Positions 53,427-63,591 of a stretch of DNA of 64,000 nt are shown here, piece after piece. The first letter of the stretch is position 1. Every line of letters begins with the position of its first letter. The notes under the pieces are model-generated. The model searched no databases and was not told the DNA's origin. It saw only the letters and a list, made by a program, of their open reading frames with translations. The stretch comes from Deltaproteobacteria bacterium. Its GTDB lineage: Bacteria > Desulfobacterota > Binatia > DP-6. The DNA is taken from positions 4,400 through 68,399 of the forward strand of contig VBKG01000312.1 of NCBI GenBank assembly GCA_005879585.1. The letters run 5' to 3'. The translations under genes were made by a program, and so were the position numbers.

Positions 53427-54749
53427 TCAGGCCGGGAGGTCGTTCTTCGGGAGCATCGAGGCGGACGCACGGCGGTCGCGGCGGTGGTCGATCGCGTGGC
53501 CGTTTTCGGCGGTCTCGGGCGCGACCGTGTCGGCCCATTCCTCGAAGCCGACGTGCTGCGCGAGATCCGCCCAGCCGTAGCGGTAGTCGCAGCGGGCGCA
53601 GTAGGGAAACGACTTCTCGACGGAGTCGTCGTTCACCGTCCGCCGGAGCGCCTGATACTTCTCGCTGTTCCAGATGTCGCGGAAAGCGGTGCTGTCGTCG
53701 TCGTACACTTTGCCCATGCTGATCGCTTCCCAGGCGCGATAGCAGGGGAGGACGCGGCCGTCGGTGTCGATCTTCACGAAGCGCCACGGTGCGCGGCAGC
53801 GTGACGGCTGCTGGCGTTTCGGCTGCTCGTCGTGCACGGCGGGGGGCAGGTTGACGCGCAGGCGCGGGTAGCGGGCTGCCACGCGGCGTGCCTCGGTGAA
53901 GATGCGGCTCATGAGGTCCTGGTGGAAGTAGAGGCTCTCCTGCGGGTCGATGCCGTTGCAGACCGCGAGGTAGCCGCAGTCCATGCGGTCGATGCCCATC
54001 TCGCCCCAGCGCTCGACGGCGTCCGGCAGTTCCTCGACGTTGGACCGCATGAGCGCGTAACGGATGATGGTGCGCGGCTCGCGCTTCCCCTCTTCCTCGC
54101 GCACGCGTAGCACCATCCGGATCTTTTCCAGGATTGTGTCGAGCTTCGCATTCACGCGGAGTCGCTCGACCGTCGCAGGATGGAATCCGTCGACGGAGAA
54201 GCCGTGCGTCGTGATGAGACCTTCGCGGACGATCGTCCGCACGCGGTCTTCGCGCACCAGCATGCCGTTCGACAGCACCCAGGTGGCGACGCGGTGCCGG
54301 CGCGCGACGCGCAGCAGGTCCTCGAGCCCCTTGTGGAGATACGGCTCGCCGCCGGAGCAGATGCTCACGAGCCGCGCGGTAGGGAAGAGCTGGCGCGCGA
54401 CGCGCTCGAAGTTCTCGAGCGAGATGCGCTTCGCGCCCGGAGTCTCGTAGTCGACGCAGAACGTGCAGGCGAGGTTGCACGCCTTGGTGAGGACGATGTC
54501 GACGTTCTGGGGCAACGAGCGGACGACCGTCGACTGGAGGCGGAACTCGACCTCGTTGAGGCCGGTGTTCAGCGCCTGGCGTGCCGTGAAGCGTCGCATG
54601 GGACGTCGGTCGAGCGCCGACGCTAGCGCCGGCCGTCTCGGACGGTCAAGCAAAAGGGTGGCCACGAATGGCCCGGTGCGGGACGGATCGGCGCCCCCCC
54701 GTGGTCGCCATGCCTTGCAGCTGCGCAAGGCGTTCGCTGTGCCTTGCAT
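53427..54749 (-). CDS. Radical SAM / SPASM-domain protein
   Basis: CNLACTFC (CxxxCxxC) and a C-terminal Cys-rich CARCDYRYGW; start at 54749 (MQGT, SD AGGCGGG) or 54599 (MRRF). Confidence 0.85.
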   Translation of the reverse strand: MQGTANALRSCKAWRPRGGADPSRTGPFVATLLLDRPRRPALASALDRRPMRRFTARQALNTGLNEVEFRLQSTVVRSLPQNVDIVLTKACNLACTFCVDYETPGAKRISLENFERVARQLFPTARLVSICSGGEPYLHKGLEDLLRVARRHRVATWVLSNGMLVREDRVRTIVREGLITTHGFSVDGFHPATVERLRVNAKLDTILEKIRMVLRVREEEGKREPRTIIRYALMRSNVEELPDAVERWGEMGIDRMDCGYLAVCNGIDPQESLYFHQDLMSRIFTEARRVAARYPRLRVNLPPAVHDEQPKRQQPSRCRAPWRFVKIDTDGRVLPCYRAWEAISMGKVYDDDSTAFRDIWNSEKYQALRRTVNDDSVEKSFPYCARCDYRYGWADLAQHVGFEEWADTVAPETAENGHAIDHRRDRRASASMLPKNDLPA

Positions 54750-56479: not shown

Positions 56480-56731
56480 ATGAAGCTCAACATCACCTAC
56501 AGCGCCTACCGCGAGCTGGAGATGATCCCGCAGGTTCCGCTGCGTCACATCGGCGAGGCGATCATCGGTCTCGCCGAGGACCCCTATCCGCCGGGCTCGT
56601 CTCTGCTGCAGGGCATCGGCGGCTGCTACTACCTCGCGATCGACAACTACTACATCCTCTACCACATCGATGACGACGGGGCGTTGACCGTGCTCGGCGT
56701 CCTCGACGGTCCGTACCACCCGCTGCATTAA
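56480..56731 (+). CDS. RelE/ParE-family toxin-like protein (orphan; no adjacent antitoxin)
   Basis: 83 aa; EDPYPPGSSLLQGIGGCYYLAIDNYYILYHIDDDGALTVLGVLDGP fits the RelE/StbE/ParE pattern ENPRPPGxKKLKG..YRIRVGDYRIIYEIDD..IxxIGHR. Confidence 0.6.
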   Translation: MKLNITYSAYRELEMIPQVPLRHIGEAIIGLAEDPYPPGSSLLQGIGGCYYLAIDNYYILYHIDDDGALTVLGVLDGPYHPLH

Positions 56732-56890
56732 GTAAACTCCTCGGGGGCCCGTGCGGTGCTCGCGCGCTTCGCGCGCTGCGCTCCTCCGATGCCCCCGAAC
56801 CCCGTCGGCCAGGATGGCAGCTCTCGCTGCCGGCCTCGCGTGGCCAGGGCGAACTTCCGCTGTCGCCGCGGTCCCGCTAAGCTCCGCGGG

Positions 56891-59263
56891 ATGGTGACGT
56901 CGCGCCGCCTGCGCCGGGCCGCCCACGCGCTCGTCGTCCTCGGCGTCTGTGCGCTCGTGGCCGCCGGCTGCCGGCGCCAGCCGCTGCCGGCGGCAAAGCC
57001 CGCCCTCCCTCGCGTGGGCGACGCGGTCGACCGCGTGCACGTCCTCATGGTGAACGGCGGCGGGAGCAAGGCGATGAACTACCAGTCGCACCTGCTCCAC
57101 GTGCAGCAGCTCCTCGACGTGCTGCGCCATGCGGGCATCCGGCCTGACCAGGTGTCGGTCTTCAGCGGCGACGGCGCCGACCCGGCCGAGGATCTCGCGG
57201 TGCGCGAGGTCCAGCCCGAGGCGGAGTTCTGGCTGCTGCGCGGCACACGGCTCGAGCACCAGCTGGCCACGCCGATCACCTACGCCAACTCCTCGGTCCC
57301 CGGCGTCGAGCTGCAGGCGGCCACCAAGGAGAACCTGCGGCGCTGGTTCAAGCGCGCGCACCGTGCGCTCGGCCGCCGCGACACCCTCCTCCTCTACGTG
57401 ACCGACCACGGCCAGAAGAACGCGGAAGACTCGCTCAACAACTCGATCACGCTCTGGGGACCCAAGGAATCGCTTTCAGTGAGCGAGCTGCGCGAGCTCC
57501 TCCGGATGCTGCGCCCCGGGGTCCGCGTCGTCATGCTGATGTCGCAGTGCTACTCGGGAGCGTTCGCACATCTCGTCGCGGTCGAGCCCGACGCGCCGCC
57601 GACCGGCAACCTCTGCGGCTACTTCTCCTCCACCGCCGATCGCCCGGCCTACGGGTGCTATCCGGAGAACCGCGGCAAGGAGAACGTCGGCCACTCGTTC
57701 CACTTCATCCAGGCGCTCGCGATCGCACGCCGCTTCCCCGACGCCCACCTGCAGGTGCTCGTCAGCGACGCCACGCCCGACGTGCCGCTGCGGACCTCCG
57801 ACGTCTACCTCGAGGATCTGCTGCGGCGGAAGGCGGCGGCCGGCGGCGAGGACCTCACCCCGATGGTCGACGGACTCCTGCGCGAGGCGTGGCGGGACAA
57901 GGCGGCGTGGGAGCCCGAGATCCGCCTCCTCGACCGCATCGGACACGCCTTCGGCTGCTTCAGCCCTCGCTCGCTCGCCGAGCTCGACGCCCTCCAGGTG
58001 GGCGACATCACCGACAAGCTGAAGACGTACAAGAGCGCCTGGGAGTCGAGCCTCAAGAGCCTCGCGGGCGAGAACCTCGACCGCTTCGTCGCGTCCAGTC
58101 CGGGCTGGAAGGAGCGAACCGCGCCCGAGCACATCCTCGCGCTCGACGCCGGCGGCACGCGGGCGCTGGCGCGCGCGCTGCTGGTCGACCTCTCCGCGTA
58201 CACCGACGGCGACGTGCCGACGGCGCGGCGGCTCGGCGTCCTCCGGAAGAAGAGCCAGGTGGCGGAATCGGCGTCGTATCGCATGGAGGTCCGCCTGGGC
58301 GTCGTGCTGCGGATGCGCGCGATCCTCACCGCCGTCGCGGGGCGCGTGTACCTGGCGTCGCGCGGGACGCCGGAGGAGCGCGCGGCCTACGAGGCGCTGC
58401 TGCGCTGCGAGGCGCTCGCCCTGCCACCCGCCGACACGCCGCTGCCGGAGTCGACGACCACCGTCGCCGAGCCGTTTCCTCCCTACGAGGACGACGTCCG
58501 GCTCGCCGCGAAGGTGCTGCCCGCCTGGATGGGGATCCGCTTCAAGCAGGCGGAGCAGGAGGCCCGGGACAAGCACCACCTCGAGGCCGGCGCGAGCGTC
58601 GTCGAATCGGTCTATCCGGATTCGCCCGCGGAGGCCGCCGGCGTGCAGGCGGGCGACGTCATCCTCGGCCCGCCGGGCGCGCCGTTCAAGGAGAACCAGC
58701 AGATCCGCGAGTGGACCATGCTGTCCAAGATCGACGAGCCGAAGCCGCTCGTCGTCCTGCGCGGCGATCACGAGGTGCGGCTGACGCTCGCGCCGAAGGC
58801 CTACCCGCTCCAGTGGACGACGGTGGCGGGCCCGCCGAAGGTGGACGCACCGGCGCCCGCCGTCACGCTGACCGCGTACCGCGGCAGCGTGCCGCCCGCG
58901 CTCTCCGACGGCACGTCGCACCTGCTGTTCTTCTGGGCGACGTACTGCGGCCCGTGCAAGGCATCGCTGCCCGAGGTGCTCGCCTTCGAGCGCGAGCGCC
59001 ACACGCAGGTCATCGCCGTGACGGACGAGCTCCGCGAGCAGCTCGATACCTTCTTCAAGAAGTTCGACGCACCCTTCCCCGAGACGGTTGCGATGGACGA
59101 GTACCGCAAGGCCTTCCTCGCCTACGGCGTGAGCGGGACGCCGACCTTCGTGCTGCTCGACGGCACCGGCAAGGTGCGGAGCTACGCGACGGGCTATTCC
59201 GCGGACAAGGGGCTCGGCATCGCGGGGTGGTCGTGGACGAAGCCTGCCCCGGCGGGCGGGTGA
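56891..59263 (+). CDS. Lipoprotein: clan-CD cysteine peptidase-like (legumain C13 / caspase-like His-Cys dyad) + PDZ + TlpA-like thioredoxin (CGPC)
   Basis: Lipobox VAAGC; YVTDHG and MSQCYSGAF dyad context; PDZ GVQAGDVILG; WATYCGPCKASLPEV redoxin motif. Confidence 0.8.
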   Translation: MVTSRRLRRAAHALVVLGVCALVAAGCRRQPLPAAKPALPRVGDAVDRVHVLMVNGGGSKAMNYQSHLLHVQQLLDVLRHAGIRPDQVSVFSGDGADPAEDLAVREVQPEAEFWLLRGTRLEHQLATPITYANSSVPGVELQAATKENLRRWFKRAHRALGRRDTLLLYVTDHGQKNAEDSLNNSITLWGPKESLSVSELRELLRMLRPGVRVVMLMSQCYSGAFAHLVAVEPDAPPTGNLCGYFSSTADRPAYGCYPENRGKENVGHSFHFIQALAIARRFPDAHLQVLVSDATPDVPLRTSDVYLEDLLRRKAAAGGEDLTPMVDGLLREAWRDKAAWEPEIRLLDRIGHAFGCFSPRSLAELDALQVGDITDKLKTYKSAWESSLKSLAGENLDRFVASSPGWKERTAPEHILALDAGGTRALARALLVDLSAYTDGDVPTARRLGVLRKKSQVAESASYRMEVRLGVVLRMRAILTAVAGRVYLASRGTPEERAAYEALLRCEALALPPADTPLPESTTTVAEPFPPYEDDVRLAAKVLPAWMGIRFKQAEQEARDKHHLEAGASVVESVYPDSPAEAAGVQAGDVILGPPGAPFKENQQIREWTMLSKIDEPKPLVVLRGDHEVRLTLAPKAYPLQWTTVAGPPKVDAPAPAVTLTAYRGSVPPALSDGTSHLLFFWATYCGPCKASLPEVLAFERERHTQVIAVTDELREQLDTFFKKFDAPFPETVAMDEYRKAFLAYGVSGTPTFVLLDGTGKVRSYATGYSADKGLGIAGWSWTKPAPAGG

Positions 59264-59310: not shown

Positions 59311-59748
59311 ATGGCGAGGCGCCCGGCCGATCTGCCCGACGAAGACGAGCCGAAGGACCGGGTCCTTCACACCCGCATCCCCGAGTCGCTCGAGGATGCG
59401 ATCAAGAGCAAGGCGCGTCGTCTGCGCATCCCGGTCTCGAACCTCGTGCGGAACGTGCTCGAGCAGACGTTCCAGCTCGTCGAAGACGTGGTCGGCGACG
59501 GCCTCGAGATCGCCAGCACAGCCAGACGGGGCGCGGCGCGCGTGCGCCAGGCGGCGACCGGCGTCGGCAGCCAGGCTGCCGGCATCTACGGCTGGCAGGA
59601 GCTGATACTGAACCGCGACGAGCGATGCGGGCATTGCGGTGTGGAGCTCGATCGTGGGGCTCGTGCGTGTCGCAGCCTCTCGGACCGGCCGGACGCGGCG
59701 CCCGTGTTTCTGTGCCCGGTGTGCGTCGCGGAGGTCGGCAAGGGCTGA
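59311..59748 (+). CDS. Ribbon-helix-helix (CopG/Arc-like) DNA-binding protein with C-terminal zinc ribbon
   Basis: HTRIPESLEDAIKSKARRLRIPVSNLVRNVLEQ RHH signature; CGHCG..CPVC; 145 aa. Confidence 0.7.
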   Translation: MARRPADLPDEDEPKDRVLHTRIPESLEDAIKSKARRLRIPVSNLVRNVLEQTFQLVEDVVGDGLEIASTARRGAARVRQAATGVGSQAAGIYGWQELILNRDERCGHCGVELDRGARACRSLSDRPDAAPVFLCPVCVAEVGKG

Positions 59749-60930: not shown

Positions 60931-60984
60931 GCGCCTGGACACTCCGGGGGCCCGCCCGCTATCTGCCGTGCGGGAGGGATGCCC

Positions 60985-62202
60985 ATGGCCGACGTCACCT
61001 GGGACTTCACCGGCAAGGTCGCGCTCGCGAGCGGCGGCGCATCGGGGATCGGCCGTGCGGCAGCGACGGCGTGGCTCGCGGCCGGAGCGCGGGTCGCGAT
61101 CCTCGACCAGAGCGCCGAGCGCCTCGAGGAGACGACAGGAGCCCTCGGCGCAGATCGGCTGCTCGCAATCTCCGGCGACGTCAGCGAGCCGGCCGACTGC
61201 GACCGCGCCATCGACGAGACGGTCCGGCGCTTCGGTCGCCTCGACGTCGTGCTCAACGCGGCGGGCATCGGCGGCATCGGGCGCGTGTGGGAGCTCGATC
61301 CGCTCATCTGGGACCGCGTGCTCGCCGTCAACCTGCGCGGCACGTTCCTCCTGACCCGCGCCGCGACGCGCTGGATGGTCGAGCACGAGCGGCCCGGGCG
61401 CGTCATCAACATCGCGTCGACCAACGCGACCGTGCCGACCACGGGGCACTCCCCGTACTGTGCGTCGAAGGCGGGCGTCGTCGCGCTGACGCAGGTCGCC
61501 GCGCTCGAGCTGGCCCCCCGTCAGGTGACCGTCAATGCGATCGCGCCGGGGCCGGTCGACACGAACCTCACCGCGCCGCTGTTCGCGATGGCCGGAGCGC
61601 GCGAAGAGTTCCTCCGCCACATCCCCCTCGGCCGGGTCGGCCGTGCCGAGGACATCGCGCAGATGATCCTCTTCCTCGCTTCGGACGCGGCGGAGTGGGT
61701 GACCGGACAGTGCTTCTACGTCGAGCAAAAAATGGTGAGGCGTCCGTTTGTCCGTTGCCCGGACGCTTGCCGGGGCTGCAGAGTCGTCGCCACCCGAAGG
61801 GGAGGAGGTCGACATGGCGGCGCGCAGACTCGAGACGATGGTTGCGCTCCTGATCCTGGTCACCGGCATGACGCGACCGGTCGCCGCGGCCCCGCGGCCG
61901 AACGTCGTGTTCATCCTGACCGACGACCAGCGGTGGGACACGATCGACAAGAAGCACTCGGTCGACGGCATCACTCCCGTCATGCCGAAGGTGCAGAGCC
62001 TGCTCGTGAGAAGGAACTCTACAACCTCGACCGCGACGCGTTCGAGCTCACCAACGTCGCCGGCAACTCGGCGAACGCCGGGCTGATCGCTCTCATGGCC
62101 GCCCGGCTGCGCGAGCTCGACCCGGGCTGGACCGGGAGCGCCCCATCGGCGCCGGCGTCCGCGGCGCCACCCGACTACGCCAACGACGACGCGTTCGAGT
62201 GA
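60985..62202 (+). CDS. SDR-family oxidoreductase with a non-native 3' extension (reads through into a sulfatase remnant)
   Basis: TGKVALASGGASGIG cofactor site, YxxxK (YCASK); SDR domain complete by about 61737, then an A6 run (61727-61732) and about 150 extra codons. Confidence 0.75.
   Translation: MADVTWDFTGKVALASGGASGIGRAAATAWLAAGARVAILDQSAERLEETTGALGADRLLAISGDVSEPADCDRAIDETVRRFGRLDVVLNAAGIGGIGRVWELDPLIWDRVLAVNLRGTFLLTRAATRWMVEHERPGRVINIASTNATVPTTGHSPYCASKAGVVALTQVAALELAPRQVTVNAIAPGPVDTNLTAPLFAMAGAREEFLRHIPLGRVGRAEDIAQMILFLASDAAEWVTGQCFYVEQKMVRRPFVRCPDACRGCRVVATRRGGGRHGGAQTRDDGCAPDPGHRHDATGRRGPAAERRVHPDRRPAVGHDRQEALGRRHHSRHAEGAEPAREKELYNLDRDAFELTNVAGNSANAGLIALMAARLRELDPGWTGSAPSAPASAAPPDYANDDAFE
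61814..62202 (+). pseudogene. Sulfatase remnant (N-terminal about 60 aa joined out of frame to the C-terminal tail; catalytic core deleted)
   Basis: RBS GGAGGAGG; MAARRLETM..PNVVFILTDDQRWDT sulfatase N-terminus in one frame; ELYNLDRDAFELTNVAG..LRELD sulfatase C-terminus in another. Confidence 0.6.
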
Positions 62203-62205
62203 CCG

Positions 62206-63591
<1,386 letters not shown>

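What the first reader, a model, noticed from the sequence alone, without database searches (positions are those of the whole stretch)
56891..59263. Unusual lipoprotein: legumain/caspase-like (clan CD) domain + PDZ + CGPC thioredoxin-like domain
After a lipobox (VAAGC) the protein carries a His-Gly ... Cys dyad in the spacing and context of clan-CD peptidases (LLLYVTDHGQKN ... VVMLMSQCYSGAF; compare legumain ..FTDHG.. / ..EACESGS..). A PDZ domain follows. A C-terminal TlpA/redoxin-like domain carries an intact CGPC active site. I do not know this combination of protease, substrate-tethering PDZ and disulfide oxidoreductase in one periplasmic lipoprotein as a described architecture. It would fit a redox-regulated processing enzyme or an envelope-stress or effector-maturation factor. 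It sits in an accessory-looking island between the RelE-like gene and the RHH regulator operon.
Basis: partly seen in the sequence, partly recalled or inferred. Interest (0 to 1): 0.7.

Follow-up and report, generated by a model that had tools for sequence, protein, structure and literature searches.

The report
Legumain-like lipoprotein with PDZ and thioredoxin
This gene encodes a real, widely conserved but unstudied exported protein of uncultured soil bacteria (Binatia) that joins a legumain-like cysteine protease, a helical domain with no specific structural match, a peptide-binding PDZ domain and a thioredoxin-like redox domain; this domain combination was not found described in the literature searched.

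The parts
56891..56971 (+). Signal peptide with lipobox LVAAG|C (Cys27). The n-region is positively charged (RRLRR) and a hydrophobic core follows.
   Evidence: Read from the sequence. Most homologues with a complete N-terminus have a signal peptide ending in a lipobox-like Cys. Some have a Cys-less signal peptide, and some gene calls are truncated.
57026..57775 (+). Clan-CD / family-C13 (legumain-like) peptidase domain, res ~46-295. The triad equivalents are N63 (57077-57079), H173 (57407-57409) and C220 (57548-57550). C242 and C256 are also invariant.
57776..58420 (+). Family-specific all-helical domain, res 296-510. It opens with the invariant PDVP..SD junction and ends with invariant C506-E507 (58406-58411).
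58421..58510 (+). Lower-confidence linker, res 511-540, carrying the conserved EPFPPY motif (58469-58486).
   Evidence: pLDDT is 64-72 for residues 511-530. P528, F529 and P530 are invariant or nearly so.
58511..58801 (+). HtrA-type PDZ domain, res 541-637. It has a conserved W-M-G-I loop (58526-58537) where the carboxylate-binding loop is expected.
   Evidence: Pfam PDZ_6 scores 31.7 bits and PDZ_2 30.3 bits, both above the cutoff of 27. PDB sequence and fold hits go to PDZ domains of HhoA, HtrA1/3, MucD, DegQ/DegS and AlgW. W546 and G548 are invariant.
58841..59215 (+). TlpA/ResA/DsbE-like thioredoxin-fold domain, res 651-775. The active site is C686-G-P-C689 (58946-58957), and G749-T750-P751 (59135-59143) lies where the cis-proline loop is expected.
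59261..59263 (+). Stop codon of the gene.

Best explanation
The gene encodes an exported, lipid-anchored cell-envelope cysteine peptidase of the legumain (clan CD, family C13) fold.

Shown:
- The peptidase domain has an intact Asn-His-Cys triad.
- A family-specific helical domain follows it directly.
- An HtrA-type PDZ and a TlpA/ResA-like CxxC domain complete the protein.
- The four-part architecture is conserved across many uncultured Binatia-type bacteria.
- The peptidase + helical + PDZ unit is the core; the thioredoxin domain is an add-on.

Inferred:
- The PDZ tethers the C-termini or exposed peptides of envelope or extracellular proteins.
- The C13 domain cleaves them. Its P1 preference probably differs from legumain's Asn.
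- The fused thioredoxin-like domain acts in cis as a reductase, presumably re-reduced by a DsbD/CcdA-type membrane electron donor.
- Its role would be to keep the exposed catalytic thiol C220 free of sulfenylation or mixed disulfides in an oxidising compartment.
- This parallels PilB, where a fused Trx-like domain recycles the Msr domains, and DsbG, which rescues sulfenylated periplasmic cysteines.
For: - Domain calls: Pfam hits for all three annotated domains are above threshold.
- Active site: N63/H173/C220 align with legumain N42/H148/C189. They are invariant in the 120-sequence alignment of close homologues and in representatives down to 33% identity.
- Model: the full-length AF2 model is confident (pLDDT 88.7, pTM 0.86), and the catalytic residues sit at strand ends as in clan CD enzymes (PMC4357240).
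- Export: a lipobox or signal peptide is present.
- Thioredoxin domain: its closest relatives are extracytoplasmic proteins, namely DsbE, ResA, CcmG, TlpA and Etrx. The nucleophilic Cys and the cis-Pro-position proline are invariant.
- Accessory status: natural forms lacking the thioredoxin domain, and forms with a degenerate CxxC, keep the triad and C242/C256/C506. This fits a supporting rather than a core role.
- Precedents: PilB (PMC6210582), DsbG and DsbD (PMC3322552), Etrx lipoproteins (PMC3914529).
Against: - There is no biochemical or genetic evidence, and no cultured organism carries the gene among the loci examined.
- Neighbouring genes are not conserved, so no substrate or partner can be proposed.
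- Model coordinates could not be inspected. Proximity of the CxxC to C220, and the pairing of the conserved cysteines, are therefore unknown.
- Forms without the thioredoxin domain show the peptidase can do without a fused reductase.
- NCBIfam ResA, DsbE and TlpA models score far below their cutoffs.
Confidence: 0.5

Rival explanations
1. Reduce-and-cleave enzyme. The thioredoxin-like domain opens disulfide bonds in substrate proteins held by the PDZ, so that the legumain-like domain can cut them. This would serve envelope quality control of mis-oxidised proteins, or scavenging of disulfide-rich extracellular proteins. It would be a bacterial one-polypeptide analogue of lysosomal GILT working alongside legumain (own knowledge).
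For: The domain evidence is the same as for the best explanation. PDZ plus protease is the layout of HtrA and Ctp quality-control proteases, whose PDZ domains are the closest matches. The three CxxS variants keep the nucleophilic Cys, and such variants tend to form lasting mixed disulfides with targets.
Against: Forms without the thioredoxin domain, and forms with a degenerate CxxC, are common, so substrate reduction cannot be essential to the core reaction. No substrate gene is linked. Nothing distinguishes this from the in-cis protection model with the data available.
Confidence: 0.25
2. Redox-gated zymogen. The helical domain caps the active site, as legumain's C-terminal domain does. An inhibitory disulfide involving the catalytic C220 and invariant C506 (or C256) is opened by the thioredoxin domain. 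Activation would then be redox-driven rather than pH-driven.
For: A helical domain directly follows the peptidase domain, as in prolegumain (PMC4357240). C506-E507 and the PDVP..SD junction are invariant, even in forms without the thioredoxin domain. Besides the CxxC pair, four cysteines are conserved, one of them catalytic. pTM of 0.86 implies packed domains.
Confidence: 0.12
3. Transpeptidase or ligase rather than hydrolase. Like the GPI transamidase subunit or plant peptide asparaginyl ligases, the C13 domain would remove a C-terminal signal recognised by the PDZ and transfer the protein to an acceptor.
Against: No conserved neighbouring substrate, acceptor-synthesis or sorting-signal gene was found. 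Legumain's S1 residues are replaced. Hydrolysis is the default for bacterial clan CD enzymes.
Confidence: 0.08
4. It is essentially a thiol-disulfide oxidoreductase, as annotated in databases, with a catalytically inert caspase-fold scaffold. Alternatively, it is an assembly artefact joining separate genes.
For: The only names given by sources are 'thiol-disulfide isomerase/thioredoxin' and 'redoxin domain-containing protein'.
Against: The triad is invariant in all 120 aligned sequences, and in distant representatives with the region present, apart from two substitutions of the catalytic Cys. Natural forms without the thioredoxin domain exist. The same full-length architecture recurs in hundreds of independent assemblies.
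Confidence: 0.03

Closest known systems
Legumain / asparaginyl endopeptidase (MEROPS C13, Pfam PF01650; human legumain 4aw9)
   Different: Identity is only about 15%. Legumain's S1 residues R44, S216 and D231 are replaced by Q65, A253 and H268; the last mapping is by spacing only. E187 is replaced by S218. The helical domain is unrelated to LSAM. This protein is bacterial and lipoprotein-anchored, and it carries PDZ and thioredoxin-like domains that legumain lacks.
PilB (Trx-like domain fused to MsrA/MsrB) of Neisseria, and the Etrx1/2-MsrAB2 system of S. pneumoniae
   Same: In these systems an extracytoplasmic TlpA/DsbE-like thioredoxin module is fused to, or partnered with, an enzyme that uses a catalytic cysteine. 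PilB's module is re-reduced via DsbD (PMC6210582, PMC3914529). Pneumococcal Etrx2 (4hqz) is among the best PDB sequence hits of the C-terminal domain.
   Different: The partner enzyme here is a clan-CD peptidase, not a methionine sulfoxide reductase. A peptidase needs no stoichiometric reduction in each turnover. The domain order also differs.
HtrA/DegP/DegS and Ctp/Tsp PDZ-proteases
   Same: These are envelope proteases in which a PDZ domain reads C-termini or exposed peptides. The PDZ here is most similar to HtrA-family PDZ domains.
   Different: There is no trypsin-like or S41 serine protease domain. The catalytic domain here is a cysteine peptidase of an unrelated fold.
GSU0716 (PDB 3bij) and bacterial C14 orthocaspases/metacaspases
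   Different: Pfam assigns this family to C13, not C14. Structural similarity is higher to legumain. From my own knowledge, orthocaspases are mostly cytoplasmic and lack this PDZ plus thioredoxin architecture.

Membership tests
Clan CD, family C13 (legumain/GPI8; Pfam PF01650) | Profile match above the curated threshold | tested here: met
   PF01650 scores 31.9 bits against a gathering cutoff of 22.8, over res 57-268. Many homologues carry the same precomputed hit.
Clan CD, family C13 (legumain/GPI8; Pfam PF01650) | Caspase-haemoglobinase fold | tested here: met
Clan CD, family C13 (legumain/GPI8; Pfam PF01650) | Catalytic His-Gly ... Cys dyad (plus Asn42 in legumain) at the homologous positions | tested here: met
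   H173/C220/N63 align with H148/C189/N42. They are invariant in the 120-sequence alignment and in distant representatives.
Clan CD, family C13 (legumain/GPI8; Pfam PF01650) | Legumain S1 pocket (R44, H45, S216, D231) giving Asn/Asp specificity (PMC4357240) | tested here: not met
   R44 is replaced by Q65 (109/120 Q) and H45 aligns with H67. S216 is replaced by A253. D231 is replaced by H268, a mapping made by equal spacing from C256/G267 and lying outside the hhalign-aligned region.
Clan CD, family C13 (legumain/GPI8; Pfam PF01650) | C-terminal LSAM (death-domain-like) prodomain | tested here: not met
Clan CD, family C13 (legumain/GPI8; Pfam PF01650) | Peptidase or transamidase activity | not testable with these tools
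   This needs biochemistry.
PDZ domain (HtrA type) | Profile match and a carboxylate-binding hydrophobic-Gly-hydrophobic loop | tested here: met
   PDZ_6 scores 31.7 bits and PDZ_2 30.3 bits against cutoffs of 27. The W546-M-G548-I loop has W and G invariant. The loop assignment is by position and was not structurally verified.
HtrA/DegP serine protease family | Trypsin-like catalytic domain | tested here: not met
   NCBIfam DegP and HhoA models match only the PDZ segment, far below their cutoffs: 39.7 bits against 416.2 for DegP and 28.7 against 450 for HhoA.
TlpA/ResA/DsbE-like extracytoplasmic thioredoxin fold (Pfam Redoxin/Thioredoxin_8) | Thioredoxin fold with CxxC and a cis-Pro loop | tested here: met
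TlpA/ResA/DsbE-like extracytoplasmic thioredoxin fold (Pfam Redoxin/Thioredoxin_8) | Membership of a specific named subfamily (ResA, DsbE/CcmG, TlpA, StoA) | tested here: not met
   All NCBIfam models score far below their cutoffs: ResA 46.5 bits against 170, DsbE 32.5 against 123, TlpA 16.1 against 230.
TlpA/ResA/DsbE-like extracytoplasmic thioredoxin fold (Pfam Redoxin/Thioredoxin_8) | Reducing (rather than oxidising) function, with electrons from DsbD/CcdA | not testable with these tools
Bacterial lipoprotein | Signal peptide ending in a lipobox with invariant Cys | tested here: met
   The N-terminus reads MVTSRRLRRAAHALVVLGVCALVAAG|C27. A similar Cys is present in most homologues with complete N-termini, but some have Cys-less signal peptides. 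No dedicated predictor was available.
   GC is like the surroundings and there is no tRNA in the window. PADLOC gives no hit for the target protein. Neighbours are not conserved across 80 loci. No mobility-gene family appeared among the Pfam hits of the ten neighbouring ORFs.

The most novel reading that the evidence does not exclude
A self-contained, redox-gated legumain-like enzyme. The family-specific helical domain would hold the catalytic C220 in an inhibitory disulfide, for example with invariant C506. The fused thioredoxin domain, fed by a membrane electron donor, would open that disulfide. Redox state, rather than pH, would then switch on an envelope protease or transpeptidase in a whole class of uncultured bacteria.
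Probability: 0.12. Interest if true: 0.8.

Novelty: new variant of a known kind. Interest (0 to 1): 0.5.

Why it matters
- I know of no biochemically characterised bacterial member of the legumain family. The best structural matches of this peptidase domain in the PDB searches were eukaryotic legumains, asparaginyl endopeptidases/ligases, metacaspases and the GPI transamidase subunit.
- This family offers a large, well-conserved bacterial branch: 584 clusters at 50% identity with E <= 1e-10. It has an intact active site, a changed specificity pocket and a helical domain with no specific structural match.
- The fusion to a thioredoxin-like domain suggests a testable answer to how a thiol protease can work in the oxidising cell envelope.
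- Legumain-type enzymes are valued as peptide ligases and cyclases. A soluble bacterial scaffold with a different P1 preference could therefore be useful in biotechnology.
- The family is also a widespread envelope protein of Binatia, a phylum known only from metagenomes.

Tried and rejected
- **Conserved neighbours.** I ran tblastn of the window's neighbours against 80 related loci and clustered all flanking ORFs against each other. No neighbour occurs in more than 16 of 81 loci. The recurrent ones are common paralogous families: histidine kinase, ABC-F and penicillin amidase. No operon partner emerged.
- **Split-gene test.** Four homologues lacking the thioredoxin domain were located on contigs. 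All are complete genes, and none has a thioredoxin gene next to it.
- **Defence or mobile-island reading.** PADLOC gave no hit, the window has no tRNA and composition is ordinary.
- **Mis-assembly.** This is rejected by recurrence of the architecture.
- **Technical failures.** The afdb50 library was unavailable, so UniProt-annotated structural neighbours could not be surveyed. Model coordinates are not exposed, so His-Cys and Cys-Cys distances and thioredoxin-to-active-site proximity could not be measured.
- **Literature.** Searches for bacterial legumains or C13 plus thioredoxin fusions found nothing relevant.

Full report
**What is there**

The window carries an ORF at 56756..59263 (+). It matches a 98%-identical 790-aa database protein over 100% of its length. 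The upstream in-frame extension is absent from the N-termini of the homologues.

The N-terminus, MVTSRRLRRAAHALVVLGVCALVAAG|C27, is a signal peptide with a lipobox.

Pfam places three domains above their gathering thresholds:
- Peptidase_C13, res 57-268, 31.9 bits against 22.8.
- PDZ_6/PDZ_2, res 547-632.
- Redoxin/Thioredoxin_8/Thioredoxin, res 651-770.

**The peptidase domain**

A profile of 45 family N-terminal regions (A2) aligns with human legumain at 95.6% probability and E 1.3e-8. The alignment pairs N63, H173 and C220 with legumain's N42, H148 and C189. It also pairs AYGC256Y with SYAC219Y.

The best PDB sequence hit of the profile is the caspase-fold protein GSU0716 (3bij, E 5.4e-5), with the same His and Cys aligned.

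The full-length AlphaFold2 model is confident (mean pLDDT 88.7, pTM 0.86). H173 and C220 lie immediately after strands 165-171 and 212-217. That is the position of the dyad in all clan CD enzymes (PMC4357240).

Foldseek finds legumain 7fqh_D at E 5.6e-7.

In a 120-sequence alignment of the window protein with its 119 full-length homologues (52-98% identity to the query), several residues are invariant. These are N63, S66, H67, D172-H173-G174, S218, C220, S222-G223, C242, C256 and C506-E507. They also hold in representatives down to 33% identity.

Legumain's specificity pocket (R44, H45, S216, D231; PMC4357240) is not kept:
- R44 becomes Q65.
- S216 becomes A253.
- E187 becomes S218.
- D231 becomes H268, by equal spacing from the aligned Cys and Gly. 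This last step is inference.

So this is a C13-like enzyme, but asparagine specificity should not be assumed.

Residues ~296-510 form a conserved all-helical domain with long helices. It starts at an invariant PDVP..SD junction and ends with invariant C506-E507.

**PDZ and thioredoxin-like domains**

The PDZ is most similar to HtrA-family PDZ domains such as HhoA, HtrA1/3, MucD, DegQ/DegS and AlgW. It has a conserved W-M-G-I loop where the carboxylate-binding loop is expected.

The C-terminal domain is most similar to extracytoplasmic TlpA-type proteins. These include 2yp6 and 4hqz (4hqz is pneumococcal Etrx2), DsbE 3gl3, ResA, CcmG and TlpA.

- C686 is present in 120/120 sequences.
- C689 is present in 117/120; the other three have CxxS.
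- P751, at the position expected for the cis-proline, is present in 120/120.

No named subfamily model of NCBIfam reaches its cutoff. SdbA and MPT53 have the same fold and appear at similar Z. From my own knowledge they are disulfide-forming enzymes. The redox direction therefore cannot be decided computationally.

**Distribution and variants**

The word-indexed search returned 1079 hits at E <= 0.001 among the 8000 candidates scored. Of the best 120, 119 are over 700 aa, and the only source names are generic.

A scan of one genome per species found 296 stretches encoding relatives. All 80 loci fetched are MAGs. Most are labelled Candidatus Binatia or carry older delta-proteobacterial or Myxococcales labels.

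An exhaustive search with residues 44-530 found 1165 50%-identity clusters at E <= 1e-3. Of these, 584 are at E <= 1e-10 and 230 at E <= 1e-30.

About a quarter of the long representatives (29 of 111) have no aligned CxxC. Many of these end soon after the PDZ. Four were checked and are complete genes inside contigs, with no thioredoxin gene beside them.

A few representatives have degenerate CxxC motifs, and some carry a 100-160-aa N-terminal extension. All keep the triad and C242/C256/C506. The conserved core is therefore peptidase + helical domain + PDZ, and the thioredoxin domain is a frequent add-on. The fusion is plainly not an assembly artefact.

**Genomic context**

The local genes are:
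- upstream: a radical SAM/SPASM protein, an aminotransferase, a small TPR-like protein, and an 83-aa ORF with only a sub-threshold ParE hit;
- downstream: a weak CopG/RHH plus zinc-ribbon protein, an alpha/beta hydrolase, an SDR and a myo-inositol-1-phosphate synthase.

Only the 83%-identical orthologous locus L001 shares the upstream genes. L066 and L049 retain some of them several kb away. Clustering all flanking ORFs of 81 loci found no neighbour in more than 16 loci.

GC content is like the surroundings. The window has no tRNA, and PADLOC gives no hit for the protein. The "accessory island" reading is not supported. This is a stand-alone, apparently vertically inherited gene.

**How it most likely works**

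Shown:
- The protein is exported.
- The legumain-type active site is intact and strongly conserved.
- A PDZ and a redox-competent CxxC domain sit in the same chain.
- The thioredoxin domain is dispensable in some lineages.

Inferred:
- The PDZ tethers substrate termini for cleavage by the C13 domain.
- The thioredoxin-like domain acts as a reductase in the oxidising envelope.

The reading I favour (about 0.5) is that the reductase protects or reactivates the exposed catalytic thiol. DsbG does this in trans for sulfenylated periplasmic cysteines (PMC3322552). The fused Trx-like domain of PilB does it in cis for its Msr domains, using DsbD (PMC6210582).

Rivals:
- Reduction of substrate disulfides before cleavage (0.25).
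- A redox-gated zymogen in which the helical domain and C506 mask C220 (0.12).
- A transpeptidase role like the GPI transamidase or the plant ligases (0.08).
- An inert scaffold or an assembly artefact (0.03), largely refuted by the data above.

**Novelty**

No paper in the searchable library describes a bacterial legumain or this architecture. No curated family model covers it beyond the individual domains.

It is a new variant of a known kind. It is a C13-type clan CD peptidase with a changed S1 pocket, a helical domain with no specific structural match and an unusual PDZ plus thioredoxin extension. Interest is moderate: it is a large uncharacterised family with a clear, testable redox-protease hypothesis, but there is no contextual clue to its substrate.

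Noticed in passing
window 56480-56731 (+): This 83-aa ORF lies 160 bp upstream of the target gene. It has only a sub-threshold ParE_toxin match (E 0.0013, 19.7 bits against a cutoff of 23), and the ORF listing shows no + strand ORF of at least 50 aa upstream that looks like an antitoxin. It is 94% conserved in the orthologous locus L001 and was not found in the other 79 loci.
   Followed up: partly
window ~59317-59748 (+): This small protein has a weak CopG/RHH N-terminus (E 1.8e-4, below the cutoff) and a CxxC...CxxC zinc-ribbon-like C-terminus. It starts about 50 bp after the target's stop codon, with no terminator-like site between the two genes. A hairpin followed by a T-run sits exactly at its own stop (59735-59748). 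It may be co-transcribed with the target in this genome. A homologue in L049 lies 7 kb away from the target gene there.
   Followed up: partly
window 60979-62202 (+) and 61748-62086 (+): The SDR ORF is 407 aa, but the SDR domain ends near residue 250. The tail, together with an overlapping ORF starting 'NVVFILTDDQRWDT', looks like N- and C-terminal remnants of a sulfatase. The Pfam Sulfatase match is only E 0.037. This may be a decayed sulfatase gene between the SDR and the inositol-phosphate synthase.
   Followed up: partly
window 53427-54749 (-): A radical SAM/SPASM-domain protein lies next to an aminotransferase. This is the kind of pair seen in peptide-modification or cofactor-maturation loci. 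No precursor peptide was looked for.
   Followed up: no
window 58469-58486 (res 527-532, EPFPPY) and 57776-57802 (res 296-304, PDVPLRTSD): Two short, almost invariant proline-rich motifs sit at domain boundaries: peptidase to helical domain, and helical domain to PDZ linker. They could be docking or autoprocessing sites. Nothing was tested.
   Followed up: no
P0212, P0230, P0237, P0240, P0242, P0260, P0263 (family representatives, 850-985 aa): A subgroup of distant family members carries an extra 100-160-aa N-terminal region. It had no Pfam match in the four members scanned (P0212, P0230, P0240, P0260).
   Followed up: no
window 62206-63591 (-): A myo-inositol-1-phosphate synthase gene is present (Pfam Inos-1-P_synth, E 1e-35). 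From my own knowledge this enzyme is uncommon in bacteria outside actinobacteria and a few other groups.
   Followed up: no
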